Source: Anaerolineae bacterium
GTDB taxonomy: Bacteria > Chloroflexota > Anaerolineae > UBA1429
Assembly: GCA_021162655.1 (NCBI GenBank)
Contig: JAGGYI010000118.1
Span: forward strand, 1-49,322
Direction of reading: 5' to 3'
DNA: 49,322 bases
The notes under the pieces were generated by a model. The model made no database searches. It had not been told where the DNA came from and was given only the letters and a program-made list of their open reading frames with translations. A program made the position numbers and the translations under genes. How positions within the stretch are numbered: position 1 is the first letter of the stretch; each line of letters starts with the position of its first letter. Below are positions 12,159 to 34,198 of this stretch, in pieces.

Positions 12159-15100
12159 TTAGAAAGGTTCTGGGCGAACAGGTAAGCGGAACGATCTTTC
12201 GCCCATAAGGATCTCGAGATAGAGTTGATCTTGCTCTATGTTGGAATCATCTCCTATTTGAAGGCGTACAGTGAGTCGAGCACTTTTCTGTGGTTTGATG
12301 TCGCAGACGTTTCGAGAAAGCATGAGTTGAGGGACTGAGGGGGTGATTTCCACATGAGCGGGAGCTAGCCCAGTGTTGTAAAGGAGTAGGCGCCCTTGTA
12401 GGACGTCTGCTTTTGGTTTCAGGACCAGTTCTTGGGGAAGTTTTAGCTCTGGCTCAAGCTGGAGAGCCAGACTTACTTTAACATCTACCTCGCCGCCGTT
12501 ACTTGTTATGTGAATCGACCCTCTCCCTTCACTTGTTCCTTGAGGGAACTCTTCCATGTCTGTGCTCACATGAACCTGGACGGAACGCCCCATTGGGCAT
12601 GCAAAGGATACTTTATCTACCGTTAGCCAGGTTTGGTCTGTGGTGATATTTCCCCGGAGCATGCCTAGGCCATGGTTGAAAATACGCAAGACGCTAGAAA
12701 CATTCTCCCGATTGACGCTCGTTCCCAAGTCGAGAAAGAGGGTATCGGTGGCGAGTAGAGGAGAAGCCAAGGCGATGCGGAGAGGGATTTTCGCTCGTCC
12801 TCCGTCGCTATTGACTATGAGAGTGGCTGTGGCGGATTCGCTCTCAAGGGCGAGCCCATATGCAGTGAGTTGCACCAGACAGCTTTGACCTGCTTGGCAG
12901 TTTCCCGAGAGGGGGGAGATCTCTAGCCAAAGAGCATCGGTTTGGATATGCCACTCGAGGTTGCCTGTGCCCTGGTTAGAAATGGTCAAGTTACGACTTT
13001 CCGGTCGAGTGCGGTCAACATAGCCGAAATCCATCTCTAAAGGGGCGACGGCGAGGGCAGGTTGAATGATGGTAATGTGAGCAGGAATATCGTAAATCTC
13101 TGCTCCTGCGACGAGACGTATAGCTGCTTGAGAAGAGATTTCCTCGCCATGGTCAAAAACTTTGCTAGAAGCAAGCAGAGGTATCTGTTTCCTCTCTCCT
13201 GGGGCACATTGGATGTGTTCTGTAGGAACGATGAGCCACTGGACGAGAGATCGTAATTGCGCTTTCAAAGGAGCAGAGCCCTCATTGCGCAGGCTGAGAG
13301 CTATTTCTTTTTCTTCTCCCAAGGAGAGGGTGCCACACTCCAAAAAGGAAGATTCAAGGACAAGCTTGGGGGCACTGATCTGAGCGCGGAGCGACAATGT
13401 TTTGCTTCCCCCATTCGTTTGAAGGCGCAAGGCCTGGGGTATCTCTAGAGGGCCATCGGCCAGTCCGGTCCAATCGGCGCTCAGCACCAACTGGGCAAGT
13501 TCCCCAGGGGCGCAAGAAAACCTTTGGGGGTGCACTTGAAGCCAGGGAAGCAGACTCCGGGCAGCTCCGTGGAGAGGAGCGTTCCCAGTGTTGCCAATGT
13601 ACAAATAGCGTTCGCTCACTTGACCGGCGAGCACGGTGCCAAAGTCGATCGTCAGAGTGCCTACATCTAACTCGGGGATGCGGCGTTGAGCCCGAATCTC
13701 TATACGCTTCTGGCCTCCATCGCTGTCAATAAGAAGCCCTTGTGGTTCAGCGAATGTTCCCCTAGGCATCTTGGTGGGGATGGCTGTAACTGGCAGAATC
13801 GTCGTTTGCCCTGCAGCGCATTGAAACTGTTGTTTGCCAAGCCTGATCCAGGGGAGTGAGCTGGTTACTTGTCCCGAGAGGGATTGTCTCCCCAAGTTGG
13901 AGACCTTGAGCTGCAAGGTCCGCTCTGTGTTTGCTTCTACGGAACCAAAGTCAAGCAGGGTTGGCTCCACGTGAAGGAGGGGCGTTGTCGGGATGTCTAC
14001 AGTCACTCCTACCCACTGGCGCCCTGCGTCTGTGTCTATTGAGATTGCTTGGGGCTCTATGATATGGCCAGCGGGTAGTTCATTAAGCTTGATTGAGAGC
14101 AGTGCTTTGGCTTGTTTCCCCGGAGGGAGACGGAAGGCTTTTTGAGGTGTTGTTATCCAGCTCGTGTGGCTGATGATGCGGCCTGTGAGTTCTCCTTGAC
14201 CCGCATTGTATAACCGAAGCGCAAAGCGCTTTTTCCCTGTGGGAGGAACATCTACTAGGCGGATTTGGCGTGGATAGACCGAAAGTTTCCCCTTTGGTTT
14301 CAGAGAGGGGACAGCTGCCTCAGCAGTAGGAGTAGGCCCGAAACGGGGATCACGTCGAAACCCAAAAGCTGCCATCGGTTCGGGTGGCAGCGTTTCTTTC
14401 TCTAAGGGGTGCTTTTCTGCTGCTCTCTGGAGGGTCACGAGCCAATTGGAGGTAGAACGAGCAGCATACTTGGAGAGCACTTGGAGGAATTCCTCAACAG
14501 AGGCGAAACGCCGAGCGACATCTTTGTGGGCTGCTTTGGCGATGGCTTTCACAAGTTCTTTGGCGATGCCTGGCACCGCCTGCTGGAGAGGGAGTTTGTG
14601 AGGAAGCCCTTTTTCTAGCAATTTGTCGATGAGCAGTGCATAGAGCAGCCGGCCGAGAGCAAAAAGATCACTTTGAGGGGTAGGTGGTGCTGTTTGGAGT
14701 TCAGGAGCAGAGTACCCTGGAACGCTGCCGTAGGGAAGGTTTGCTGTGGGTTTGAAAGCTTGTCCTAGGTTGAAACCGAGTATTTTGGCACGGCCTTCGA
14801 TGGTGATAAGGACGTGACTTGGTGAGAGGAACGACGCGAAAAGAGGCGGAGACTGCCGATGGAGGTAACAAAGGGCTTCGCCTAGTTGTATTCCCCAGGC
14901 ACAGGCGAGAGAAGGAGGTGTTTTCCAAGAGGGATTGGCAATAATCTTGGCAAGCGTCCATCCTTCGAGAAATTCATAGACGACGTAGTAATTGTTGTGC
15001 TCGTGAAAAGCATCAACGATGCGAACAAAGCCTGGGTGGTTTACCTTCCTCCAAAGAGTTAAAGATCTCTCAAAGGTTGCTACAGCCTCCCGACGTTCCT

Positions 15101-15443
15101 TTGAAGTAATGAGAGCGAGAGGGCTTAATTCCTTGATGGCGTATAGCTTTTCGGAGTGGAGGTCAGCGGCTTTATACACGGTGCTGATGGGCCCTTTGGA
15201 AAGAGTACTCAAGAGGCGATAGCGGTGAGCAAGCTCTTGATGTGGGGTCTCGCGGAAAAGATCAGCGAGCAGAACATCATTTGTGGATTGTCCCTCGCAA
15301 TTTGGGCAGTGCCCCACATACCATGGGCGTGGGGTACCGCAGATAGGGCAAACTTGAATGAGAGGAGCACCGCAACGCACGCACCGGCGAGCGGAAAGAT
15401 CATTCAGTTGATTGCATTTGGGACAGCGCTGTTTTGTTGCCAT
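12159..15443 (-). CDS. Zinc-ribbon + Ser/Thr-kinase-like (predicted pseudokinase) + 7x Ig-like repeat protein
   Basis: The N-terminus has CPKC..CVRCG and CPICG..CPNC. The Hanks-type fold retains YAIKEL (beta3 Lys) and SAPE. The catalytic loop reads HRQSPP...LSPSHVLI instead of HRDxKxxN, and DFG reads GFN. Seven roughly 100-aa repeats follow. No signal peptide or TM segment is visible. Confidence 0.8.
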   Translation of the reverse strand: MATKQRCPKCNQLNDLSARRCVRCGAPLIQVCPICGTPRPWYVGHCPNCEGQSTNDVLLADLFRETPHQELAHRYRLLSTLSKGPISTVYKAADLHSEKLYAIKELSPLALITSKERREAVATFERSLTLWRKVNHPGFVRIVDAFHEHNNYYVVYEFLEGWTLAKIIANPSWKTPPSLACAWGIQLGEALCYLHRQSPPLFASFLSPSHVLITIEGRAKILGFNLGQAFKPTANLPYGSVPGYSAPELQTAPPTPQSDLFALGRLLYALLIDKLLEKGLPHKLPLQQAVPGIAKELVKAIAKAAHKDVARRFASVEEFLQVLSKYAARSTSNWLVTLQRAAEKHPLEKETLPPEPMAAFGFRRDPRFGPTPTAEAAVPSLKPKGKLSVYPRQIRLVDVPPTGKKRFALRLYNAGQGELTGRIISHTSWITTPQKAFRLPPGKQAKALLSIKLNELPAGHIIEPQAISIDTDAGRQWVGVTVDIPTTPLLHVEPTLLDFGSVEANTERTLQLKVSNLGRQSLSGQVTSSLPWIRLGKQQFQCAAGQTTILPVTAIPTKMPRGTFAEPQGLLIDSDGGQKRIEIRAQRRIPELDVGTLTIDFGTVLAGQVSERYLYIGNTGNAPLHGAARSLLPWLQVHPQRFSCAPGELAQLVLSADWTGLADGPLEIPQALRLQTNGGSKTLSLRAQISAPKLVLESSFLECGTLSLGEEKEIALSLRNEGSAPLKAQLRSLVQWLIVPTEHIQCAPGERKQIPLLASSKVFDHGEEISSQAAIRLVAGAEIYDIPAHITIIQPALAVAPLEMDFGYVDRTRPESRNLTISNQGTGNLEWHIQTDALWLEISPLSGNCQAGQSCLVQLTAYGLALESESATATLIVNSDGGRAKIPLRIALASPLLATDTLFLDLGTSVNRENVSSVLRIFNHGLGMLRGNITTDQTWLTVDKVSFACPMGRSVQVHVSTDMEEFPQGTSEGRGSIHITSNGGEVDVKVSLALQLEPELKLPQELVLKPKADVLQGRLLLYNTGLAPAHVEITPSVPQLMLSRNVCDIKPQKSARLTVRLQIGDDSNIEQDQLYLEILMGERSFRLPVRPEPF
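12162..14291 (-). repeat. Seven tandem ~100-aa beta-sandwich (ASH/PapD/BACON-like) coding repeats inside the kinase-like gene
   Basis: There is a recurrent pattern L.FG.v......L.v.N.G...L.G......WL.v....f.C..G....v.l. Examples are LDFGSVEANTERTLQLKVSNLGRQSLSG..LPWIRL..FQCAAGQ and IDFGTVLAGQVSERYLYIGNTGNAPLHG..LPWLQV..FSCAPGE, with further copies beginning LECGTLSLGEEKEIALSLRNEGSAPL, MDFGYVDRTRPESRNLTISNQGTGNL and LDLGTSVNRENVSSVLRIFNHGLGML. Confidence 0.65.
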
Positions 15444-25141: not shown

Positions 25142-25888
25142 TCATCCTAGTGCTTTGCCGATGAAAGCCGCGCTGATCGCAACAGGGATAAGGCGGAGCC
25201 CAAGTAAAAGGGCCCAGGCCAAGATGGCGAGGAGTAAACCCTTTTTGCGGCTCACCTTTGTGGCTGCTGAGATCCCTATGCTCCAGAGAACAATGTACCA
25301 TAGAGAGAAAAGATCTATGTTGCTTAAAAGAGCGTAGAGGATGTTGCGGCTATCTCTGAGCCAGTTACCACTGCTGACGAGGAAGGAAAACCCTTGATGT
25401 TCGATGAGTTGATGGTTTATGCTAATGTAGAGGGCCTGAGTGAGCTTCTGAACCCCAAACGGAATGCTGCTCCAGACAGTGACAGCGAATGTCTTGGCCC
25501 ATTGGCTTTCTCCTCTAAGGGCGGCGCTAGAAAAATGAATGAGAGCTGCTCGGATGGTCCATCCCAGGAGAGCTAAAACAAACCCGACACCCACGGAGCT
25601 TATCCAATAGCGTTGTATTGTCATAGTTTGGGGTTGCCTTCGCATAGCAGTTCCCAAGCCCCTCATAGGGACTCTCGGGGTAGGTCTGTTAGAGAGATGC
25701 TCGATCATTTGGGTGGCTTGGGCATTTGCCCTCTCTACTGCCAAGGGGGCAGAGGCCCAGGTAAAAATAACTGTGCAAAGAAGGAAAAAGAGGGCAGCGA
25801 TCCACCAGGTGCGATGCCGTTGGGCTGCATGCTTCATAGCTAGCGTTGGCTGGTCAAATATATGCCAGAGAATTTGCCCGGAATGCAT
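25142..25888 (-). CDS. Polytopic membrane protein (possibly Yip1-domain), first gene of the efflux operon
   Basis: 248 aa with about 5 predicted TM helices, 23 nt upstream of the adaptor gene on the same strand. The family assignment is tentative. Confidence 0.4.
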   Translation of the reverse strand: MHSGQILWHIFDQPTLAMKHAAQRHRTWWIAALFFLLCTVIFTWASAPLAVERANAQATQMIEHLSNRPTPRVPMRGLGTAMRRQPQTMTIQRYWISSVGVGFVLALLGWTIRAALIHFSSAALRGESQWAKTFAVTVWSSIPFGVQKLTQALYISINHQLIEHQGFSFLVSSGNWLRDSRNILYALLSNIDLFSLWYIVLWSIGISAATKVSRKKGLLLAILAWALLLGLRLIPVAISAAFIGKALG

Positions 25889-25983
25889 CGTTTCCTCCTT
25901 GTGTCATCATCACTTTATATTACGCAGATGTCGGGAGCTTTATTCGCTTCGAGGAGTTACGGGGTATTTTGGAGGGATGGGAG

Positions 25984-26691
25984 ATGAAAATTTGGAAGAC
26001 GTTAACACTGGTTTCCCTTTCCTTGTTGGGCAGCTTTGCTGTGGGATGCTCCAAGGGACCGCCCCTTTCGCCTAGCGAAAGTACAGGACGAGAAAGAATT
26101 GTATCTCTGCCTCTTCCCAGCAAGTATAGCGAGGTTTCGATAGAGGAGGCCCTCTGGAAGAGGCGATCCATTCGCCGCTATGCGGAGGGTGCTCTTTCTC
26201 TCCAGGAAGTAGGCCAACTTCTTTGGGCTGCCCAGGGTGTTACAAACGAAAGGGGTTTTCGAACCGCACCTTCTGCAGGGGCTCTTTACCCCTTGGAACT
26301 CTACATTGTAGTAGGGAAGGTTGAGGGATTGTCACCCGGAATCTACCATTACCTCCCTCAGGATCATGCTTTAGAATGGGTAAAGGAGGGAGATTTTAGA
26401 GAGCTCCTTGCAAGGGCTGCCCTTGACCAGGCTTGGGTTCAGCAAGCGGCTCTAGATATTGTTTTTGCCGCTATCTACGAGAGAACTACCCGCAGGTATG
26501 GCTTCCGTGGAGTGCGCTATGTGCACATAGAGGTAGGCCATGCAGCAGAGAACGTCTATCTTCAAGCCGTCAGTTTGGAACTGGGCACAGTGGCTGTTGG
26601 CGCTTTTCACGACGAACAGGTACGCCAGGTCCTGGGTCTCTCCGAAAAGGAGGTTCCTCTTTACATCATGCCTGTGGGAAGACTCCGTTAG
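25984..26691 (+). CDS. SagB/ThcOx-type nitroreductase-fold dehydrogenase with a lipoprotein-type signal peptide
   Basis: MKIWKTLTLVSLSLLGSFAVGC (lipobox-like AVGC), followed by RRSIRRY, LLWAAQGVT, RTAPSAGALYPLELYIVV and GIYHY, which are typical of the SagB-type dehydrogenase domain. The start is at ATG 25984 with GGAGGG upstream. Confidence 0.7.
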   Translation: MKIWKTLTLVSLSLLGSFAVGCSKGPPLSPSESTGRERIVSLPLPSKYSEVSIEEALWKRRSIRRYAEGALSLQEVGQLLWAAQGVTNERGFRTAPSAGALYPLELYIVVGKVEGLSPGIYHYLPQDHALEWVKEGDFRELLARAALDQAWVQQAALDIVFAAIYERTTRRYGFRGVRYVHIEVGHAAENVYLQAVSLELGTVAVGAFHDEQVRQVLGLSEKEVPLYIMPVGRLR

Positions 26692-28407: not shown

Positions 28408-28935
28408 TTACCAGCGCTCATAATGCACGAGTTGCTCAAAGCTTTTGCGGAGCTTTGGCTTGGGGGAGTCAGCTGGATAACCCAGAGGAGTGAAAGCGAT
28501 AGGCTCGACGTTGGCTGGGAGGGAAAGGACTTCTCTAGCTGCTCCGGGATCGAAGGCACCTATCCAGCATGTACCAAGCCCTTCTTCTGTGGCAGCCAAA
28601 ATAAGGTGATCCATAGCAATGGCAGCGTCGACGTCGGCATAGTTTTTTCCATCGCGGCGAGACCAGCATTGCTCAGGAATAGCACAGACACAGAGAACCA
28701 AAGGGGGCTGCTTAGCAAACCAGTCAGCGTGGTAGATGCGTTCTAGTTCTTTCTCTTTTCCCTTGGTGTGAATGACGATAACTCCCAATGCTTGGCGATT
28801 GGCTGCAGTCGGGGCAAGAATAAAGGCTTCCAAGATCCTGCGTAAGCTTTCCTTGGGGATGTCTCGGCTTTGGTAGGCTCTAACTGAATACCGCTTGCGA
28901 ACAAGTTCAGCAAAATCCATGAATCCCTCCTTCAA
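28408..28935 (-). CDS. Nitroreductase family protein (FMN-dependent)
   Basis: 175 aa. RYSVRAY, APTAANRQ and GLGTCWIG are typical small nitroreductase motifs. Confidence 0.8.
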   Translation of the reverse strand: MKEGFMDFAELVRKRYSVRAYQSRDIPKESLRRILEAFILAPTAANRQALGVIVIHTKGKEKELERIYHADWFAKQPPLVLCVCAIPEQCWSRRDGKNYADVDAAIAMDHLILAATEEGLGTCWIGAFDPGAAREVLSLPANVEPIAFTPLGYPADSPKPKLRKSFEQLVHYERW

Positions 28936-29008: not shown

Positions 29009-29037
29009 TTGACGTGAGCTTCACGCGCTGTTATAAT
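29009..29037 (+). promoter_or_regulatory. Sigma-70 promoter driving the cobalamin riboswitch operon
   Basis: TTGACG (29009-29014), a 17-nt spacer, then a perfect TATAAT (29032-29037). The predicted TSS is about 10-15 nt upstream of the riboswitch P1 helix. Confidence 0.55.
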
Positions 29038-29054
29038 AATGTTGGTCTTAAAAA

Positions 29055-29195
29055 GATGGAGGCTGAGGTGCTCCTGCCGCCCGGATGCGAGGAGCATAAG
29101 AGGGGAAGCCCGGTGAAAGTCCGGCACTGTCCCGCAACTGTAACCTCTAGGTTTGGGACCTAGGGGAAGTCAGGTCGCCTGCCTCAGCCTGTCAT
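29055..29195 (+). promoter_or_regulatory. Cobalamin (B12) riboswitch aptamer
   Basis: P1 pairs GGCTGAGG (29061-29068) with CCTCAGCC (29182-29189). The conserved core is AAGAGGGGAAGCCCGGTGAAAGTCCGGCACTGTCCCGCAACTGTAA. A B12-box-like GAAGTCAGGTCGCCTGCC lies immediately 5' of the P1 3' strand. Confidence 0.85.
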
Positions 29196-29244
29196 TCCGG
29201 AGCCTTCGAGGAAAGGTGATGGGATGGGCTGCTGTTCATGCTCT

Positions 29245-29273
29245 TTCCCACATCTTGTGGGAATTTTTCTTTT
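29245..29273 (+). terminator. Riboswitch expression platform: intrinsic terminator hairpin
   Basis: TTCCCACA-tct-TGTGGGAA (8-bp stem) followed by TTTTTCTTTT. It lies about 55 nt after the aptamer and about 120 nt before the ATG at 29394. Confidence 0.55.
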
Positions 29274-29393
29274 AGAGCTGCCCTCACCCTCCTCGGCTTA
29301 TCTCAAGAGGAAGGAGGGGATTGCCATGCAAGTGGCCTCATAAGCCGGCTGTTCCGTCGACTGTTAGAAGTGCAATCCTCATAGGAGGGCAGC

Positions 29394-32120
29394 ATGAATC
29401 GAACAAAAAAGTTATTACTGCTTCTCGTATTTGTTTTCTTTATAAGTAGCGGGACTTTCCTCCCTGCCAGGGCTGCGGCGCCAAGTATACTTCTTGATGT
29501 TCATTCCCAGGGGACCGTTGTTGACCGTGCGTTGCAGTGGGTTCTCGCTCAACAAAACGACGATGGCTCTTTCCCCTCAACTTGGGACGCCGTGGGCATG
29601 AGCCTTGACGCTGTGTTCGCAGGTGCAGCTGCGGGGGTAGATGTCTCTAATTGGCGGACGGATTCCGCTAATCCTTCTGTGCTTGATTTTTTGGCGGCTA
29701 ATGTTGATGCATATGCTACGGACGCTGCCAAAGCTGGTAAATTCCTGGCAGCTATAGTTGCTGCAGGGCAAGATCCCTGGAGCTTTGGGAACAGAGATCT
29801 AGTTGCATTGCTTTTGGGGTATCAGCTTGCGGACGGGACGTTTGGTACTTCAGTAACCGCGAACGCGTGGGCGATCTTGGGGCTTGTTGCTGCGCGGGAA
29901 TCCGTTCCGGAGGCTGCTATTGCCTTTCTGGAGGGGCAGCAAGCTCCCAACGGAGGATGGGATAGTGGTTGGGGCATAGATACTAACACAACTTCCTTGG
30001 TCCTCCAGGCACTCCTCGCTGCAGGAAAGACCTCCTCAGACTCGGTGATCCAGAAGGGGCTAGCCTACCTCGCCACCCAGCAGAGCGAGAGCGGGGGGTT
30101 TGTTTTTTCCACAGACTTTGGAACAGAGGCAGATGCTAATTCGACGGCATACTGTTTGCAGGCCTTGATTGCTGCGGGAGAAAATCCTTTTAGCTCTACC
30201 TGGTGCCGAGGAGGGCATTCCCCCTTCAATGCTTTGCTAGAATTTCAGCTCCCAAGTGGAGCCTTTGTGTGGAAGGAGAGCCAAGGGGAAGAGAACCTCT
30301 CGGCCACATTGCAGGCGATCCCAGCGGTTTTGGGCAAACCGTTTCCTCTCTCTGGAGTAGTTCCTGCTCTTCGCGATGCGGTGGCCTATCTTCGGGGAAT
30401 GCAAGAGGATGATGGGAGTTTCCCCAGCGGGTTCAGCGCCCGCGCTGCAATGTCTTTGGCGGCACTGGGAGAGGATCTCTATCAGTGGAAGGGCGCTGGT
30501 GGTACATCCTTGCTCGAGTATCTTGAGACGGAAGCTGCCCGGGTAAACAATGTGGGGGTGGCTGGGCGTTTGGCAGCTGCGCTGGCCATGGCGAAAGCAA
30601 ATCCTTACCTTGCAGGAGATGTAAATCTCATTGCCTATATCAAACGAGCGTATCAGGCGGATACAGGAGCTTTTGATCGCCAAGGGAATGTCTGGAATCA
30701 TTCCCTCGCTCTGTGGGGGTTGTATGCTAGTGGTGAACCTATTCCTCCTGAGGCAGTAGCTTGGCTCAAGAGTTGCCAAAATGAAGATGGAGGCTGGGGC
30801 TGGGCAGTCGGAGGGGCGAGTGATAGCAATTCCACGGCTTTGGCTATTGAGACCCTCTTGGCTTGTGGTGTGGCGGAAGATGATCCCGTAATTACGCATG
30901 CCCTGGATTACCTTCGGAGCCTTCAGCTGGGCGATGGAGGGTTCCCCTGGGATGCCACTGGGACAGCGTCTGACGCGGATTCGACAGCTCTGGCAATTCA
31001 GGCTATTGTCGCTGCTGGAGAGGATCCTTCGGTGGGTTGGAACTGGGCCCGGACGATCTCTTCCACAGAGGAGATAACGATCACGGTTCGCAAACCTTTG
31101 GATAGACTCCTCGCTTTACAACGTCCTTCTGGAGCGTTCGAGTGGTTGCCTGGCACTGGGGATAATCTTCTCTCAACAATTGAGGCCTTGCCTGCCTTGG
31201 TCGCTCGACCATTCCCTTGGCAGAGCCCAACAATTAAAGCGGCCCAAAAGGCTATCGCCTGGATAAAGGATCAGCAGCAGGAAGATGGTTCTTTCCCAGC
31301 GGCTTTTGGGCATCCTGCTGGCATTACTCTTGATGTGATCATGGCAGGGATAGCGGCAGGTGAGGATGTTTCGGCTTGGCGGCAGGGTGCTGGAGGAGCT
31401 TCCCCGTTGGATTATTTGGCTTCAGTGGTTGATGAATATGCGACAAGTGCCTCGACTACGGGCAAGCTCATCGTTGGGGTTGTGGCTGCCGGAAGAGATC
31501 CGACTGTCTTTGGGCAGTGCAATCTCATTGAACGCTTACTCAGCTACGAGAGTGAAGGTGCATTTGGCACGACAAGTTTGGACCAAGCTTGGGCTCTTCT
31601 TGCTCTAGCTGCGGCAAAGAGAGCCGTTGATCAAAGTGCTATCGATGTTCTGCTCGGCTTGCAACAAGAGGATGGAGGATGGGAAAGTGATCTTGGGCGG
31701 GGCACGGATACCAATACGACAGGCCTTGCTCTTCAGGCTTTGATTGCTGCCGGGGTGGATCCGAGTGCTCCTGCTATCGATCGGGCCTTGTCGTATCTTA
31801 AATCGCAGCAAAGCTCGAGCGGAGGTTTTACCTATTCTACGGCCTGGGGAACCGAAGCCGATGCAAACTCTACAGCCTTGAGTATTCAAGGACTGTTTGC
31901 AGCCGGAGAAAGCCCCTTTGCTCAGCAGTGGCAGAAGGGAGAGCAAGGTCCAGTGGATGCACTGTTGGCATTTCAGCTTGAAAGTGGGGCTTTCGAGTGG
32001 AAGCCTGGTCAAGGGGAGAACCTACTGGCGACAGCACAAGCAGTGCCGGCGATTTTGCTAGAGGTCTATCCTCTAAGGGAAGTTTCTTTCGTGCATGTTT
32101 GGTTACCTTGGCTTCCTTGA
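29394..32120 (+). CDS. Secreted protein with three tandem prenyltransferase/squalene-cyclase-like alpha/alpha-toroid modules (candidate cobalamin-binding alpha-domain protein)
   Basis: Sec signal MNRTKKLLLLLVFVFFISSGTFLPARA/AA. There are 13 Q..(D/S/N)G(G/S/A/T)(F/W)-type repeats (QQNDDGSF, QQAPNGGW, QQSESGGF, QEDDGSF, CQNEDGGW, QLGDGGF, QQEDGGW and others). GGAGGG is upstream. It is the first gene after the B12 riboswitch. Confidence 0.75.
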   Translation: MNRTKKLLLLLVFVFFISSGTFLPARAAAPSILLDVHSQGTVVDRALQWVLAQQNDDGSFPSTWDAVGMSLDAVFAGAAAGVDVSNWRTDSANPSVLDFLAANVDAYATDAAKAGKFLAAIVAAGQDPWSFGNRDLVALLLGYQLADGTFGTSVTANAWAILGLVAARESVPEAAIAFLEGQQAPNGGWDSGWGIDTNTTSLVLQALLAAGKTSSDSVIQKGLAYLATQQSESGGFVFSTDFGTEADANSTAYCLQALIAAGENPFSSTWCRGGHSPFNALLEFQLPSGAFVWKESQGEENLSATLQAIPAVLGKPFPLSGVVPALRDAVAYLRGMQEDDGSFPSGFSARAAMSLAALGEDLYQWKGAGGTSLLEYLETEAARVNNVGVAGRLAAALAMAKANPYLAGDVNLIAYIKRAYQADTGAFDRQGNVWNHSLALWGLYASGEPIPPEAVAWLKSCQNEDGGWGWAVGGASDSNSTALAIETLLACGVAEDDPVITHALDYLRSLQLGDGGFPWDATGTASDADSTALAIQAIVAAGEDPSVGWNWARTISSTEEITITVRKPLDRLLALQRPSGAFEWLPGTGDNLLSTIEALPALVARPFPWQSPTIKAAQKAIAWIKDQQQEDGSFPAAFGHPAGITLDVIMAGIAAGEDVSAWRQGAGGASPLDYLASVVDEYATSASTTGKLIVGVVAAGRDPTVFGQCNLIERLLSYESEGAFGTTSLDQAWALLALAAAKRAVDQSAIDVLLGLQQEDGGWESDLGRGTDTNTTGLALQALIAAGVDPSAPAIDRALSYLKSQQSSSGGFTYSTAWGTEADANSTALSIQGLFAAGESPFAQQWQKGEQGPVDALLAFQLESGAFEWKPGQGENLLATAQAVPAILLEVYPLREVSFVHVWLPWLP
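29517..32075 (+). repeat. Three ~280-aa coding modules (about aa 42-319, 322-609, 612-894) within the toroid protein
   Basis: Each module starts with ..A..W(L/I)...Q..DGSFP and ends with ..(I/L/V)PA(V/L/I)L....(F/Y)P(L/W). Modules 1 and 3 align nearly colinearly (for example GTEADANSTAYCLQALIAAGENPF and GTEADANSTALSIQGLFAAGESPF). Confidence 0.7.
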
Positions 32121-32130
32121 AGCACGAGAT

Positions 32131-32160
32131 TTCTAGGGAGGCCCTAGGGCCTCCCTAGAA
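32131..32160 (+). other. Perfect 30-nt palindrome / strong hairpin in the intercistronic gap
   Basis: TTCTAGGGAGGCC-ctag-GGCCTCCCTAGAA followed by GTTTTCG. It lies between the stop at 32120 and the next ATG at 32181. Confidence 0.5.
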
Positions 32161-32180
32161 GTTTTCGAAGGAACGTCGGG

Positions 32181-32945
32181 ATGAAGTTGAGAAGGCTCTT
32201 GCTCGGCATAAGTTTGCTCTTTCTATGCTCTGGAACTCTACTTTCCTCTCAAGAGAGGGATGAGCAGGTAGCTCTCGTTGTGGGCTTTGGTGATGGTTCG
32301 TATTTGGTCCGTTGCGTGCCCTGGATGGAAGGGATGACAGGGCTGGACCTTTTGTATGCCAGTGGATTGCAAATCTCAGAAGATCGGGGGCTCGTTTGCA
32401 AGATTGGTCCTGAAGGGTGCGATTACCCCAAGGAGCGCTGTATTTGTTCATCTTCTTACTGGAATTATTGGCACTGGCAGGATGGGGCATGGCGGTATTC
32501 TGGGGTAGGAGCTGGTGGGTATCTTTTGCATCCCGGAGATGTAGATGGGTGGGCTTGGGGCGGAGCTGGCACAGTGCCTCCGACTATTGCACCGGATGAA
32601 ATCTTTGCTCCAGAGCGGGTGGCTCCTGGAATACCTCGAGTTGAGGTTGTGAATGGAGATTTGCTAGCTTGTGTAAACTTTAAGGGTGATGTAAACGGGA
32701 ATGCTCGTATTGAAGGGCACTGTGTTCGAGTGGATGAAGCGGGATCCCAGGTCAGTTGCTCTCTTGACCGCCAGGAGAGTCGTTTTTGTGGGACCCTTGT
32801 TCCTGAAATAAATCAGGGGGTATATCGCATCACTTTTTCTATTTTGGATCCGGATGGGGTAAGAGGAAGCTCCGAATGGACTTTGCTTTTTACGATGACC
32901 AGCCCAGTGTATATCTTCTGCCCTTTTATCTCCAACGGTAATTGA
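32181..32945 (+). CDS. Exported Cys-rich protein with a transcobalamin-beta-like (DUF4430-like) domain plus a C-terminal beta-rich domain
   Basis: Signal peptide MKLRRLLLGISLLFLCSGTLLS. The domain at about aa 29-127 ends in YWNYWHWQDGAWRYSGVGAGGYLLHPGDVDGWAWG. This matches the DUF4430 C-terminal signature (W.Y.vNG....G...Y.L..GD.i.W.Y), recognised from memory. Confidence 0.6.
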   Translation: MKLRRLLLGISLLFLCSGTLLSSQERDEQVALVVGFGDGSYLVRCVPWMEGMTGLDLLYASGLQISEDRGLVCKIGPEGCDYPKERCICSSSYWNYWHWQDGAWRYSGVGAGGYLLHPGDVDGWAWGGAGTVPPTIAPDEIFAPERVAPGIPRVEVVNGDLLACVNFKGDVNGNARIEGHCVRVDEAGSQVSCSLDRQESRFCGTLVPEINQGVYRITFSILDPDGVRGSSEWTLLFTMTSPVYIFCPFISNGN

Positions 32946-32959
32946 CTTGGGAGGATCAA

Positions 32960-34198
32960 GTGTGCTGTTTCGTTCAAAGAGCTCTGGTGTTCATCGCGAT
33001 ATTTCTCTTGCTTTGTGGGGGGACAGTCAATGCAGAGGAGCCCATGCATCGTGCTGGGCTTATAGTGGTGTTTGGAGAGGGCCGCGTTTTTCAAGCCTGT
33101 GTAACCTTTTCGGAAGAGGAAATATCGGGAGTTGAGCTTCTCCGCCGGGCTGGATTGCACGTTATTACTGAGGCTTCAGTCATTGGCGAAGCAGTGTGCA
33201 AGATCGAGGATACGGGTTGTGAGTTCCCGGCTGAACAGTGTTTTTGCCAGTGCTTAGGCTCCCCTTGCATTTATTGGAGTTATTGGTATTGGCAAGGGGA
33301 TGGGTGGGTCTATTCGGGTAGAGGGGCTGGTAATAGAGTATTGCATGATGGTGATGTCGACGCCTGGGTGTGGGGAGATGGGCAGACCCCGCCCCCTCTG
33401 TGGACTTTTCAGGGCCTCTGTGGTCCTTCTGCAACGCCTTCACCGATTCCTTCTCGAACTCCCACTTGGACTCGCTCTCCAACCAGCACACCTGTTCCCT
33501 CTTTGACGCCTTCTGCGACTCCTACAAGGACTTTGACCCCTACGCCTCACCCTACGGCGATCCCTTCAAACACTCTTGCGTCTGCTACAGAGCGCGATCG
33601 GCGGGCAACCCCTACTCCGTCCCCGACAGTGACACCTACTTTTACTCCTTCTGCAACTCCGACGTATACCCCACAACCTACGGAAAAACCCTCTATTCTT
33701 CCTACGACACCTCCTCTATTACCGTCACCCTCGCCGCTGCTGGTGGTTAAAACTACTGCTTATCCCTTACCTACCAAGGAGCCATCACCACAGGTTTCTC
33801 CTGTTTTTAAAAAAGAGACGTTCCCCGATGAGCCGACACAGGCTGCGTTTCCCCAAAATGCTGCAACGCCTTTAGTGGTTGCCACCGCTAGCCCTGTTCC
33901 TTCACCAATGGAGCTTTCTCGGGCTGGAAACCCTGGCCAAGTGGGTCGTGGGTATTCTTCAGAGACTTTGGGGCGCGCTTCTCCCACTGTTGACCGGATC
34001 GCCCTGTTGATCGCTACTTCTGCCGCGACTTCTGGCGGTGTGTTTACAGGTCCCTCTTCTGAGAAAAAAGGAGGGGACTATCGATCTTTCTTCTTTATTG
34101 TGGGAGGGCTGGCTTGTTGTATTGTCTACGTCCTTTTGCTGCGCCAGCAACAAAGAAAGCGGCATTTTGCTACTGAGGAGGAGAAAGAGAATCTCTAA
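32960..34198 (+). CDS. Surface-anchored paralog: DUF4430-like domain + ~200-aa Pro/Thr/Ser-rich stalk + C-terminal TM anchor
   Basis: Signal-like ALVFIAIFLLLCGGTVNA. The domain ends YWSYWYWQGDGWVYSGRGAGNRVLHDGDVDAWVWG and is paralogous to the preceding gene. The PT-rich region is nt ~33422-33978. The TM segment FFFIVGGLACCIVYVLLL (34085-34141) is followed by RQQQRKRH. The start is probably GTG 32960 (GGGAGGA upstream); the ORF track starts at TTG 32942. Confidence 0.6.
   Translation: MCCFVQRALVFIAIFLLLCGGTVNAEEPMHRAGLIVVFGEGRVFQACVTFSEEEISGVELLRRAGLHVITEASVIGEAVCKIEDTGCEFPAEQCFCQCLGSPCIYWSYWYWQGDGWVYSGRGAGNRVLHDGDVDAWVWGDGQTPPPLWTFQGLCGPSATPSPIPSRTPTWTRSPTSTPVPSLTPSATPTRTLTPTPHPTAIPSNTLASATERDRRATPTPSPTVTPTFTPSATPTYTPQPTEKPSILPTTPPLLPSPSPLLVVKTTAYPLPTKEPSPQVSPVFKKETFPDEPTQAAFPQNAATPLVVATASPVPSPMELSRAGNPGQVGRGYSSETLGRASPTVDRIALLIATSAATSGGVFTGPSSEKKGGDYRSFFFIVGGLACCIVYVLLLRQQQRKRHFATEEEKENL

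What the first reader, a model, noticed from the sequence alone, without database searches (positions are those of the whole stretch)
29009..34198. B12-riboswitch operon encoding only exported proteins: a triple alpha/alpha-toroid protein plus two transcobalamin-beta-like proteins (candidate extracellular cobalamin-capture system)
A strong promoter and an unmistakable cobalamin riboswitch with a terminator platform precede exactly three genes.
- Gene 1 is a 908-aa Sec-secreted protein built from three prenyltransferase/squalene-cyclase-like alpha/alpha-toroid modules.
- Genes 2 and 3 are paralogous exported, Cys-rich proteins. Their core ends in the W.YW.W..G.W.YSG.GAG...L..GDVD.W.WG signature that I recognise as the DUF4430 / transcobalamin C-terminal (beta) domain.
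- One paralog sits on a ~200-aa Pro/Thr stalk with a C-terminal TM anchor.

It is established that eukaryotic transcobalamin and intrinsic factor sandwich B12 between an alpha6/alpha6-barrel domain and a small beta domain. Here the two fold types appear to be encoded as separate polypeptides under B12 control. No BtuFCD, ECF-CbrT or TonB transporter and no B12-dependent or B12-biosynthetic enzyme is present in the operon. The flanking genes are on the opposite strand.

This suggests a surface-displayed B12-scavenging complex, a kind of split transcobalamin. I am not aware of such a system having been characterised.
Basis: partly seen in the sequence, partly recalled or inferred. Interest (0 to 1): 0.85.

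Follow-up and report, generated by a model that had tools for sequence, protein, structure and literature searches.

The report
B12-repressed exported transcobalamin-like corrinoid binders
A vitamin-B12 riboswitch controls three exported proteins whose folds match the two halves of animal transcobalamin; they most likely capture B12-type cofactors outside the cell, as part of a widespread system that was predicted on paper in 2007 but has never been tested for B12 binding.

Summary
A cobalamin riboswitch (RF00174, 68.5 bits), a near-consensus promoter and a terminator hairpin precede three same-strand genes. These encode a 908-aa secreted protein of three alpha/alpha-toroid modules and two paralogous Cys-rich exported proteins, one on a Pro/Thr stalk with a C-terminal TM anchor.

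The "DUF4430 signature" fails by sequence: there is no PF14478 hit, and hhalign against the transcobalamin beta domain gives 0.3%. It holds by fold. For the AlphaFold model of the gene-3 core (pLDDT 93), the top 18 Foldseek PDB hits are all transcobalamin, haptocorrin or intrinsic-factor beta domains, or DUF4430 structure 3u7z. The domain belongs to the SCO2322 family (Pfam PF28005).

In 59 species-level loci from Chloroflexota and Actinomycetota, the usual operon is riboswitch, toroid, SCO2322, then an ECF transporter (47/59). In 14 loci the beta-like domain and toroids are fused in one ORF. The window's transporter-less operon is therefore a minority variant of an ECF accessory system.

The toroids have lost the DxDD catalytic motif, so they are probably binders rather than cyclases.

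The idea is not new. Burroughs et al. 2007 predicted bacterial transcobalamin-like B12 scavengers with CbiO/CbiQ. A 2019 L. sakei preprint describes separate alpha-like and beta-like proteins beside an ECF transporter. Corrinoid binding remains untested. Verdict: new variant of a known, computationally predicted kind; moderate interest.

The parts
29009..29037 (+). sigma-70-like promoter (TTGACG, 17 nt spacer with TG, TATAAT)
   Evidence: Consensus scan matches 11 of 12 positions. This is a pattern match only.
29049..29200 (+). cobalamin riboswitch aptamer (RF00174)
   Evidence: 68.5 bits against a gathering score of 31.5, full model length. It also scores 116 bits with the custom model R1.
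29245..29273 (+). intrinsic-terminator-like hairpin plus T-run (expression platform)
   Evidence: 8-bp stem, 3-nt loop, then TTTTTCTTTT. The hairpin is present in both the MFE and centroid folds. An antiterminator was not demonstrated.
29274..29393 (+). 120-nt leader with the RBS AGGAGGG at 29384-29390
   Evidence: Read directly from the sequence. The CCCTCCTC / GAGGAAGGAGGGG segments could form a second, translational layer; this was not tested.
29394..32120 (+). gene 1: secreted protein of three alpha/alpha-toroid modules (29478-30398, 30399-31268, 31269-32108), related to SCO2321. It has no LPXTG motif or TM anchor.
   Evidence: Pfam and NCBIfam hits. The profile's best PDB matches are squalene-hopene cyclases, 2e-37. 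The cyclase DxDD motif is replaced by DTNT/DSNS. It is 54% identical to the triple-toroid protein of Anaerolineae MAG locus L006.
32181..32945 (+). gene 2: exported SCO2322-family protein. The transcobalamin-beta-like core is at 32256-32618 and a C-terminal beta-sandwich (Ig/FnIII/CopC-like) is at about 32628-32936. It has no anchor.
   Evidence: AF2 core pLDDT is 91-97. Foldseek hits include 3u7z and 4kki, plus FnIII/CopC for the C-terminal domain. Homologs carry PF28005.
32942..34198 (+). gene 3: SCO2322-family paralog. The core is at 33041-33433, the Pro/Thr/Ser stalk at 33437-34066 and the C-terminal TM anchor at 34079-34150. Its start overlaps the gene 2 stop by 4 nt.
   Evidence: AF2 model pLDDT is 93.4. 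Foldseek ranks 1-18 are all TC/HC/IF beta domains or 3u7z.

Best explanation
This is a B12-repressed operon for extracellular corrinoid capture.

Regulation. When intracellular coenzyme B12 is high, the riboswitch favours the terminator at 29245-29273 and the genes stay off. When B12 is scarce, three proteins are exported.

The binders. Genes 2 and 3 carry a transcobalamin-beta-like beta-grasp (SLBB) domain of the SCO2322 family. Gene 1 supplies three non-catalytic alpha/alpha-toroid modules. By analogy with transcobalamin, where an alpha/alpha toroid and a beta domain sandwich one cobalamin, a toroid module and a beta-like domain together bind a corrinoid (cobalamin, another cobamide, or cobinamide).

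Location. Gene 3 holds one binder on a roughly 210-residue Pro/Thr stalk anchored in the membrane. Gene 1 and gene 2 have no recognised anchor. They are either released or held by protein-protein contacts or the Ig-like domain of gene 2.

Uptake. In most relatives the captured ligand is passed to a dedicated ECF transporter encoded in the same operon. Here the transporter must be encoded elsewhere in the genome.

What is shown and what is inferred:
- Shown: the riboswitch, the export signals, the folds, the conserved gene linkage and the fusions.
- Inferred: corrinoid binding, alpha-beta pairing, hand-off to a transporter, and repression by B12.
For: 1. The riboswitch is strong in the window. 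It recurs on the correct strand upstream of the same gene pair in 48 of 59 species-level loci by the custom CM: 33 at >=58 bits, 10 at 45-53 bits and 5 weak.

2. The gene-3 core model has pLDDT 93.4.
- Its top 18 Foldseek PDB hits are exclusively TC, haptocorrin or IF beta domains, or DUF4430 structure 3u7z.
- TM normalised to the target is 0.73-0.80.
- There is a sharp gap after rank 18.
- The gene-2 model independently hits 3u7z and 4kki.
- The model has the beta-hairpin directly after the helix, which defines the transcobalamin-like SLBB clade in Burroughs 2007.

3. Gene linkage across the 59 loci: a toroid gene is adjacent in 50 and an ECF T or S component is present in 47. The ATPase passes the NCBIfam ECF_ATPase_1 cutoff.

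4. In 14 loci one ORF fuses the beta-like domain with two toroid modules.

5. Some Chloroflexia loci replace the ECF genes with CobC-CobT-CobS, the nucleotide-loop assembly genes. This ties the pair to corrinoid salvage.

6. The class II cyclase motif DxDD (SDVDDT in 7xq4) aligns to SDSNST in module 2. The corresponding position in modules 1 and 3, found by a pattern match, reads DTNTT. This argues for binding rather than catalysis.

7. The isolated human TC beta domain has been crystallised bound to cyanocobalamin (PDB 5np4, listed).
Against: - There is no sequence-level link to DUF4430 or transcobalamin: no Pfam hit at E<=10, hhalign probability 0.3%, and no PDB profile hit.
- Fold identity to the TC beta domain is only 11-14%, and conservation of B12-contact residues was not assessed.
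- The toroid profile is closest to terpene cyclases, not to the TC alpha domain. hhalign against TC alpha gives probability 9.6%.
- No transporter lies in this operon or this 49-kb contig.
- Module counts are not 1:1 (three toroids, two beta-like domains).
- Some loci have the beta-like gene without any toroid (L004, L037, L059).
- The only genetic study of an analogous system (L. sakei) argued for heme, not B12.
- No binding, localisation or expression data exist for this family.
Confidence: 0.68

Rival explanations
1. The proteins capture a different tetrapyrrole or a metal (heme, or cobalt/another metal ion) rather than a corrinoid. The B12 riboswitch would then only reflect a link to cobalt or tetrapyrrole economy.
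For: - The L. sakei preprint assigns heme uptake to an ECF operon with TC-alpha-like and TC-beta-like exported proteins.
- The DUF4430 structure 3u7z was deposited as a "putative metal binding protein".
- The T component matches Pfam CbiQ, "cobalt transport protein".
- The family-specific Cys-rich insert (invariant C73, C80 and C87 in gene 2 numbering) could in principle ligate a metal.
Against: - The linked S component is of the vitamin type (PF12822 ECF_trnsprt), not CbiM/CbiN.
- The closest folds are all B12 carriers.
- Some loci pair these genes with CobC/CobT/CobS, which act on corrinoids.
- The cysteines sit in exported domains and are more simply explained as disulfides (inference).
Confidence: 0.12
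2. The operon is a competitive hoarding or sequestration device. Secreted and tethered B12 binders would deplete the environment of corrinoids or store them at the surface, comparable in logic to the Bacteroides surface B12-binding proteins (from my own knowledge). There would be no dedicated hand-off to an ECF transporter in this organism.
For: - This operon and a few relatives lack any transporter gene in cis: the window, L023, and the Chloroflexia CobCTS loci.
- Gene 1 and gene 2 lack recognisable anchors.
- Gene 1 multiplies the binding modules threefold.
Against: - 47 of 59 relatives are in one operon with an ECF importer, so delivery is the ancestral context.
- The contig is only 49 kb, so an unlinked transporter cannot be excluded.
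Confidence: 0.12
3. Gene 1 is an extracellular terpenoid cyclase or prenyl-processing enzyme, or a thioester (TED-like) protein. The operon would then have an envelope or lipid function unrelated to B12 capture.
For: The best sequence matches of the toroid modules are squalene-hopene and class II terpene cyclases. There is also a marginal Pfam TED_complement hit of 26.5 bits.
Against: - The catalytic DxDD motif is absent from all three modules, and there is no DxDD anywhere in gene 1.
- There is no CGEQ thioester motif.
- Each module is a single toroid of about 290 aa, not the two-domain cyclase.
- Cobalamin riboswitch control and linkage to ECF, CobCTS and the TC-beta-like domain are conserved.
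Confidence: 0.04

Closest known systems
Bacterial transcobalamin-like SLBB (DUF4430) plus alpha/alpha-toroid surface proteins linked to CbiO/CbiQ transporters (Burroughs, Balaji, Iyer & Aravind 2007, PMC1796856)
   Same: - The proteins are secreted or surface-located.
- They have a beta-grasp domain of the transcobalamin clade.
- A toroid is either fused or adjacent.
- A second paralogous beta-domain protein sits in the operon.
- Ig-like accessory domains occur.
- They are linked to ECF-type T and A components.
- Their predicted role is scavenging B12 or its precursors.
   Different: - The domain here is the Cys-rich SCO2322 family, which the DUF4430 HMM does not detect.
- The lineages are Chloroflexota and Actinomycetota, neither of which is mentioned in that paper (0 occurrences of Streptomyces or Chloroflex).
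- Explicit cobalamin-riboswitch control is documented here.
- The window's version has a triple toroid and no transporter in cis.
L. sakei Lsa1836-1840 ECF-like system with separate transcobalamin beta-like (Lsa1839) and alpha-like (Lsa1840) exported proteins (bioRxiv 10.1101/864751)
   Same: The alpha-like and beta-like parts are separate exported polypeptides encoded beside ECF S, AA' and T components. They are proposed to form an extracellular heterodimer that passes its ligand to the S component.
   Different: That work claims heme as the ligand and rests on HHpred, docking and mutant phenotypes. No riboswitch is reported in the passages I read. The present beta-like domain is a different sequence family, and the operon lacks the ECF genes.
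Vertebrate transcobalamin, intrinsic factor and haptocorrin
   Same: The beta-domain fold matches (Foldseek prob 1.00, TM 0.73-0.74 to the isolated TC beta domain). An alpha/alpha toroid is the partner fold.
   Different: - The two parts are separate polypeptides, or are fused in the order beta-alpha-alpha in relatives.
- Identity is 11-14%.
- There is a Cys-rich insert.
- The toroid is closer to terpene cyclases than to TC alpha.
- The proteins are membrane-anchored or secreted bacterial proteins.
- No receptor-based endocytosis is involved.
SCO2321 / SCO2322 families (NCBIfam NF053823 and NF040672; Pfam PF28005)
   Same: These are the best family-level matches for gene 1 and for genes 2/3. 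The Actinomycetota loci found here share the layout riboswitch, toroid, SCO2322-like gene, then EcfT-EcfAA-EcfS.
   Different: Scores are below the NCBIfam cutoffs: 216 against 300 for gene 1, and 16-20 against 85 for genes 2/3. The window proteins are therefore distant relatives, not equivalogs. The families carry no functional annotation that I could read, and no paper in the library discusses them.
ECF-CbrT (the characterised ECF-type B12 importer of Lactobacillus delbrueckii; from my own knowledge)
   Same: It is an ECF-type uptake route for cobalamin, and relatives of this operon carry a dedicated ECF module.
   Different: To my knowledge CbrT works without extracellular binding proteins. 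The S component in relative locus L001 gives no PDB sequence match at E<=1. No S component is present in the window.

Membership tests
Cobalamin riboswitch (Rfam RF00174) | Covariance-model score at or above the curated gathering threshold over the full aptamer | tested here: met
   68.5 bits against 31.5, model positions 1-189.
Cobalamin riboswitch (Rfam RF00174) | Ligand-dependent control of the downstream genes through an expression platform | tested here: inconclusive
   A terminator-like hairpin with a T-run lies 45 nt downstream. The alternative antiterminator and the ligand response cannot be tested in silico here.
Pfam DUF4430 (PF14478; transcobalamin C-terminal domain family) | HMM match at or above the gathering score (23.8 bits) | tested here: not met
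   The gene 2 and gene 3 cores give no hit at E<=10. The human TC beta domain, used as a positive control, scores 29.1 bits.
Pfam DUF4430 (PF14478; transcobalamin C-terminal domain family) | Detectable profile-level sequence homology to the transcobalamin beta domain | tested here: not met
   hhalign of A2 against TC beta gives probability 0.3%. The A2 profile finds no TC/IF/HC or 3u7z sequence in the PDB at E<=10. The template was a single sequence, so sensitivity was limited.
Transcobalamin-like clade of the SLBB beta-grasp superfamily (Burroughs 2007) | Beta-grasp core with a beta-hairpin insert directly after the helix, and closest structural neighbours being TC-type beta domains | tested here: met
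   The model has strand-strand-helix (33-39), then a hairpin (44-49 / 52-58), then further strands. Foldseek ranks 1-18 are all TC/HC/IF beta domains or 3u7z, with a sharp drop after that.
Transcobalamin-like clade of the SLBB beta-grasp superfamily (Burroughs 2007) | Binds cobalamin or another corrinoid | not testable with these tools
   This needs UV-vis, ITC or a co-structure. Conservation of contact residues was not assessed.
SCO2322 family (Pfam PF28005 / NCBIfam NF040672) | HMM match at or above the curated cutoff | tested here: inconclusive
   NCBIfam gives 16.3 and 20.1 bits against a cutoff of 85. PF28005 is absent from the local Pfam copy, but it is precomputed on most homologs, including P0002, which is 42% identical to gene 2.
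SCO2321 family (NCBIfam NF053823) | Equivalog cutoff of 300 bits; described as a membrane protein | tested here: not met
   216.5 bits summed over 7 stretches from three modules. Gene 1 has no hydrophobic segment other than the signal peptide.
Class II terpene cyclases / squalene-hopene cyclases | Catalytic DxDD(T) general-acid motif and a two-domain (beta-gamma) toroid architecture | tested here: not met
   DxDD aligns to DSNS in module 2. The corresponding position in modules 1 and 3, from a pattern match, reads DTNT, and there is no DxDD anywhere in gene 1. The modules are single toroids of about 290 aa.
ECF-transporter-associated B12 uptake operon (toroid + beta-like + EcfT/AA'/S) | ECF T, A and S genes in the same operon | tested here: not met
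   There is no EcfT or EcfS match anywhere in the window. The only ABC ATPase is part of a MacB/HlyD efflux set. The ECF genes are present in 47 of 59 relatives.
Thioester-containing (TED / alpha-2-macroglobulin) proteins | CGEQ thioester motif | tested here: not met
   The motif is absent from gene 1. The Pfam TED hit is 26.5 bits over only 36 residues.

The most novel reading that the evidence does not exclude
The SCO2321-like toroid and the SCO2322 beta-like domain form a true "split transcobalamin" that binds corrinoids outside the cell in Chloroflexota and Actinomycetota. This would be a large family (over 4000 clusters at 50% identity), untested, and distinct from DUF4430. In transporter-less operons such as this one, the triple toroid plus a free and a stalk-tethered beta-like protein would act as a secreted and tethered "corrinophore" relay: one part captures B12 at a distance and passes it to the anchored paralog, and then to an unlinked importer. 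The family-specific conserved cysteines might contact the cobalt or the upper ligand rather than merely forming disulfides.
Probability: 0.3. Interest if true: 0.72.

Novelty: new variant of a known kind. Interest (0 to 1): 0.52.

Why it matters
B12 is made by few microbes and needed by many, so the way cells capture it shapes communities.

Gram-negative capture (BtuB, and BtuG/H in Bacteroides) and the ECF-CbrT importer have been studied. In the paper library I searched, I found no biochemical study of extracellular corrinoid binders in Chloroflexota or Actinomycetota.

This locus and its 59 relatives define a riboswitch-controlled pair with the folds of the two transcobalamin halves. The pair is usually wired to an ECF transporter. 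That is unusual in itself, because ECF transporters are defined by having no extracellular binding protein.

If binding is confirmed, three things follow:
- There would be experimental support for the 2007 prediction that transcobalamin-type carriers have bacterial counterparts, which bears on the authors' proposal that animals acquired these proteins from bacteria.
- A large uncharacterised family (SCO2322/PF28005) would be added to the B12 field.
- A marker would be available for B12 auxotrophy or salvage in abundant uncultured Chloroflexota.

Tried and rejected
- Pfam scan of genes 2/3 for DUF4430 and Cobalamin_bind: no hit.
- Profile search of the beta-like core against PDB sequences: only noise.
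- hhalign of the core against the TC beta domain, and of the toroid profile against TC alpha: not significant.
A 5-sequence alignment worked.
- Single-linkage BLAST clustering of crude ORF calls merged toroid, SCO2322 and ECF components through fusions and low-complexity linkers, so I abandoned it. I replaced it with seed phmmer/hmmsearch on six-frame ORFs.
- The profile search of the 1.84-billion-protein library showed the family's size, but only the top 150 hits are listed. It could not be used to bridge to DUF4430.
- The divergent upstream gene (28408-28935) was tested as a possible BluB: 56 bits against a cutoff of 150, so it is a generic nitroreductase.
- I searched for ECF or Btu genes and B12 enzymes elsewhere in the window and found none among the ORFs scanned.
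- The S component of relative locus L001 against the PDB (looking for CbrT): no match.
- Literature searches for SCO2321/2322, for DUF4430, and for riboswitch plus prenyltransferase, ECF or squalene found no characterisation.
- Weak custom-model riboswitch hits were re-checked with Rfam. L052 and L041 are borderline, and L028 and L030 are unconfirmed.

Full report
**1. What is in the sequence**

The whole window has one Rfam hit at gathering level: a full-length cobalamin riboswitch aptamer at 29049-29200(+), scoring 68.5 bits against a threshold of 31.5.

- Twelve bases upstream lies a promoter-like site, TTGACG-17-TATAAT with a TG extension, at 29009-29037 (11 of 12 positions).
- Forty-five bases downstream lies a terminator-like hairpin (29245-29263) followed by TTTTTCTTTT. 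The hairpin persists in both the MFE and the centroid fold of the leader.

Three + strand ORFs follow: gene 1 at 29394-32120 (908 aa), gene 2 at 32181-32945 (254 aa) and gene 3 at 32942-34198 (418 aa). Gene 3's start overlaps gene 2's stop by 4 nt. Both neighbours are on the - strand. They are a generic nitroreductase (BluB model 56 bits against a cutoff of 150) and a sugar-phosphate isomerase/epimerase-like gene.

The larger ORFs I scanned elsewhere in the 49-kb window are unrelated to B12. They include UvrD helicases, a Ser/Thr kinase, a MacB/HlyD efflux set, sugar oxidoreductases and PFOR.

**2. The three proteins**

Gene 1:
- Its only hydrophobic segment is an N-terminal signal-like one (residues 4-28...PARA/AAPS).
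- It has three consecutive alpha/alpha-toroid modules. These hit Pfam SQHop_cyclase_C/N and Prenyltrans and, below cutoff, NCBIfam SCO2321_fam (216 against 300 bits).
- A profile of 18 such modules finds squalene-hopene and class II terpene cyclases as the best PDB sequences (2e-37), and no transcobalamin.
- Where a class II cyclase has its general-acid motif (SDVDDT in 7xq4), module 2 has SDSNST. A pattern match at the corresponding position gives DTNTT in modules 1 and 3.
- There is no DxDD and no CGEQ thioester motif anywhere in gene 1. The modules therefore look like binding scaffolds, not enzymes.

Genes 2 and 3:
- They are paralogs: 38% identity, E 8e-31.
- Each has a signal-like N-terminus and a Cys-rich core of about 125 aa.
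- Gene 2 adds a C-terminal beta-sandwich. Its model has pLDDT around 70, and its Foldseek hits are FnIII and CopC-like.
- Gene 3 adds a 210-residue linker (P 20%, T 18%, S 12%) and a C-terminal TM helix followed by a basic tail.

**3. Is the core a transcobalamin beta / DUF4430 domain?**

By sequence, no.
- There is no PF14478 hit even at E<=10, although the human TC beta domain scores 29.1 bits. I verified that control sequence against PDB 5no0.
- hhalign against TC beta gives 0.3% probability.
- A profile search of PDB sequences returns only noise.
- The domain belongs to a separate family. Homologs carry precomputed PF28005, whose name is shown as "SCO2322". NCBIfam SCO2322_fam gives weak hits.

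By fold, yes.
- The gene-3 core model is confident: pLDDT 93.4, pTM 0.87.
- Its Foldseek PDB hits at ranks 1-18 are exclusively transcobalamin, haptocorrin or intrinsic-factor beta domains, or the bacterial DUF4430 structure 3u7z. E-values run from 5e-5 to 3e-2, all at probability 1.00.
- TM normalised to the target is 0.73-0.74 for the isolated TC beta domain and 0.80 for 3u7z.
- Rank 19 drops to E 0.14 and probability 0.35.
- The independent gene-2 model also finds 3u7z and haptocorrin 4kki.
- The predicted topology has the beta-hairpin immediately after the helix. Burroughs et al. give this as the hallmark of the transcobalamin-like SLBB clade, and in transcobalamin that insert contributes B12 contacts.

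**4. Context in other genomes**

The family is large. A profile search gives 4113 clusters (at 50% identity) at E<=1e-3 and 847 at E<=1e-30.

A scan of species-representative genomes returned 59 loci in Chloroflexota (Anaerolineae, Chloroflexia, Dehalococcoidia, Ardenticatenales, Caldilineae, Thermomicrobia) and Actinomycetota. I used a covariance model built from eight Rfam-confirmed riboswitches and seed HMM searches of six-frame ORFs. The results are:

| Feature | Loci out of 59 |
|---|---|
| Cobalamin riboswitch hit upstream | 48 (33 at >=58 bits, 10 borderline, 5 weak) |
| Adjacent toroid gene | 50 |
| ECF T or S component | 47 |

- Most of the 11 loci without a riboswitch hit are truncated upstream.
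- The ECF T/S components are usually arranged as riboswitch, toroid, SCO2322, EcfT, EcfAA', EcfS. The ATPase passes the ECF_ATPase_1 cutoff, and the S component is PF12822.
- Of the 12 loci without ECF genes, six end within 600 nt of the SCO2322 gene. Four carry CobC (with CobT and CobS in L019, as in L002) instead. L023 continues into an unrelated Hen1 gene. L059 has the SCO2322 gene alone.
- In 14 loci a single ORF encodes the beta-like domain followed by two toroid modules, and a second SCO2322 gene and the ECF genes come next.
- The closest relative of gene 1 is a triple-toroid protein (54% identity over its full length) in an Anaerolineae MAG. Its contig ends just after the SCO2322 gene.
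- In several Chloroflexia relatives the toroid protein ends in an LPxTG-like motif, a hydrophobic stretch and a basic tail (sequences printed). Gene 1 lacks this.

**5. Interpretation**

Four observations point the same way:
- conserved riboswitch control;
- export signals;
- the two transcobalamin fold types encoded side by side and repeatedly fused;
- linkage to an ECF importer or to the nucleotide-loop assembly genes.

Together they indicate a B12-repressed surface system that captures corrinoids. The beta-like domain is the probable primary binder, since some loci have it without a toroid and the isolated human beta domain has been crystallised with cyanocobalamin (PDB 5np4). The toroid is its probable partner.

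The window's operon is a variant: three toroid modules in one secreted protein, one free and one stalk-anchored beta-like paralog, and no transporter in cis.

All steps beyond fold, context and regulatory-element identification are inference. No binding, localisation or expression data exist.

Rivals:
- A different ligand (heme or a metal). This is prompted by the L. sakei study and by the deposited name of 3u7z.
- A hoarding role without dedicated import.
- An enzymatic or lipid function. I consider this unlikely because the catalytic motifs are lost.

**6. Relation to what is known**

- Burroughs, Balaji, Iyer and Aravind (2007, PMC1796856) described the following:
  - secreted bacterial transcobalamin-like SLBB proteins, fused N- or C-terminally to alpha/alpha toroids;
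  - Ig-like domains and Gram-positive anchors on these proteins;
  - paralogous second copies in the same operon;
  - CbiO/CbiQ genes in the operon;
  - a predicted role in scavenging B12 or its precursors.
- A 2019 preprint (10.1101/864751) described separate exported TC-beta-like and TC-alpha-like proteins beside ECF S, AA' and T components in L. sakei, and argued for heme uptake.
- NCBIfam and Pfam have uncharacterised family models named after SCO2321 and SCO2322.
- I found no paper on those families, and none showing corrinoid binding by any bacterial DUF4430 or SCO2322 protein.

What this analysis adds:
- fold-level assignment of the SCO2322 family to the transcobalamin-like clade;
- the riboswitch and ECF linkage across Chloroflexota and Actinomycetota;
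- the fusion evidence;
- the transporter-less triple-toroid variant.

**7. Verdict**

- Novelty: a new variant of a known, computationally predicted kind.
- Interest is moderate (0.52). A B12-uptake specialist would not be astonished. The family is nonetheless large, experimentally untouched and directly testable, and an ECF transporter with extracellular binding proteins runs against the textbook definition of ECF systems.

Noticed in passing
window 32100-32120 (gene 1 C-terminus ...VSFVHVWLPWLP); also P0002, P0013, the L010 fused ORF and several toroid modules from other loci: A short hydrophobic motif of the form [VILW][YWH][VL]P[LWF][VIL] recurs at or near the C-termini of these exported Chloroflexota proteins. 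Examples are ...INLPLVLSD...LHLPLVQRG...PLWLPLVMR...TVYVPFA and ...APLYLP. It may be an uncharacterised sorting or retention signal, in place of the LPxTG-like anchors seen on the Chloroflexia toroid proteins.
   Followed up: no
window 29274-29393: The 120-nt leader between the riboswitch terminator and gene 1 contains CCCTCCTC (29286-29293) and GAGGAAGGAGGGG (29307-29319). These could alternately pair with each other or with the RBS AGGAGGG (29384-29390), which would add a translational layer of control. Folding of the leader was not significantly more stable than shuffles (z = -1.24).
   Followed up: partly
L049 1787-1877(-) and L055 4198-4276(-): In two Actinomycetota loci the layout is rearranged. 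EcfT-EcfAA-EcfS run on the minus strand, the riboswitch sits after them and directly upstream of the toroid gene, and the SCO2322 gene is divergent on the plus strand.
   Followed up: no
L002 8497-13513 (same as L019), L011, L014, L015: Chloroflexia and Herpetosiphonaceae loci place the toroid and SCO2322 genes in front of CobC, with CobT, a 78-aa ORF and CobS in L002/L019, instead of an ECF transporter. This suggests coupling of capture to lower-ligand attachment or corrinoid remodelling. The 78-aa ORF gives a sub-threshold beta-roll hit.
   Followed up: partly
L004 / L005 10001-10534; L037 8001-8414; L059: SCO2322 genes also occur without any toroid partner. L004 has one alone next to SecA, and L037 has riboswitch, SCO2322 and ECF. 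The beta-like domain can therefore evidently function without the toroid.
   Followed up: no
window 32758-32790: A terminator-like hairpin (9-bp stem followed by CGTTTTTGTG) lies inside the gene 2 coding region, upstream of gene 3. It may be a chance match, or it may attenuate gene 3 expression.
   Followed up: no
window 25846-26691(+) and 28408-28935(-): Two nitroreductase-superfamily genes lie just upstream of the operon. One is a SagB-type dehydrogenase domain protein with a hydrophobic N-terminus (150 bits against a cutoff of 78). The other is a 175-aa generic nitroreductase whose best model is BluB, but far below cutoff. No link to the operon was established.
   Followed up: partly
window 12159-15443(-): A 1094-aa protein combines a double zinc ribbon, a Ser/Thr kinase domain and BACON/ASH-type Ig-like domains. 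It is unrelated to the finding.
   Followed up: no
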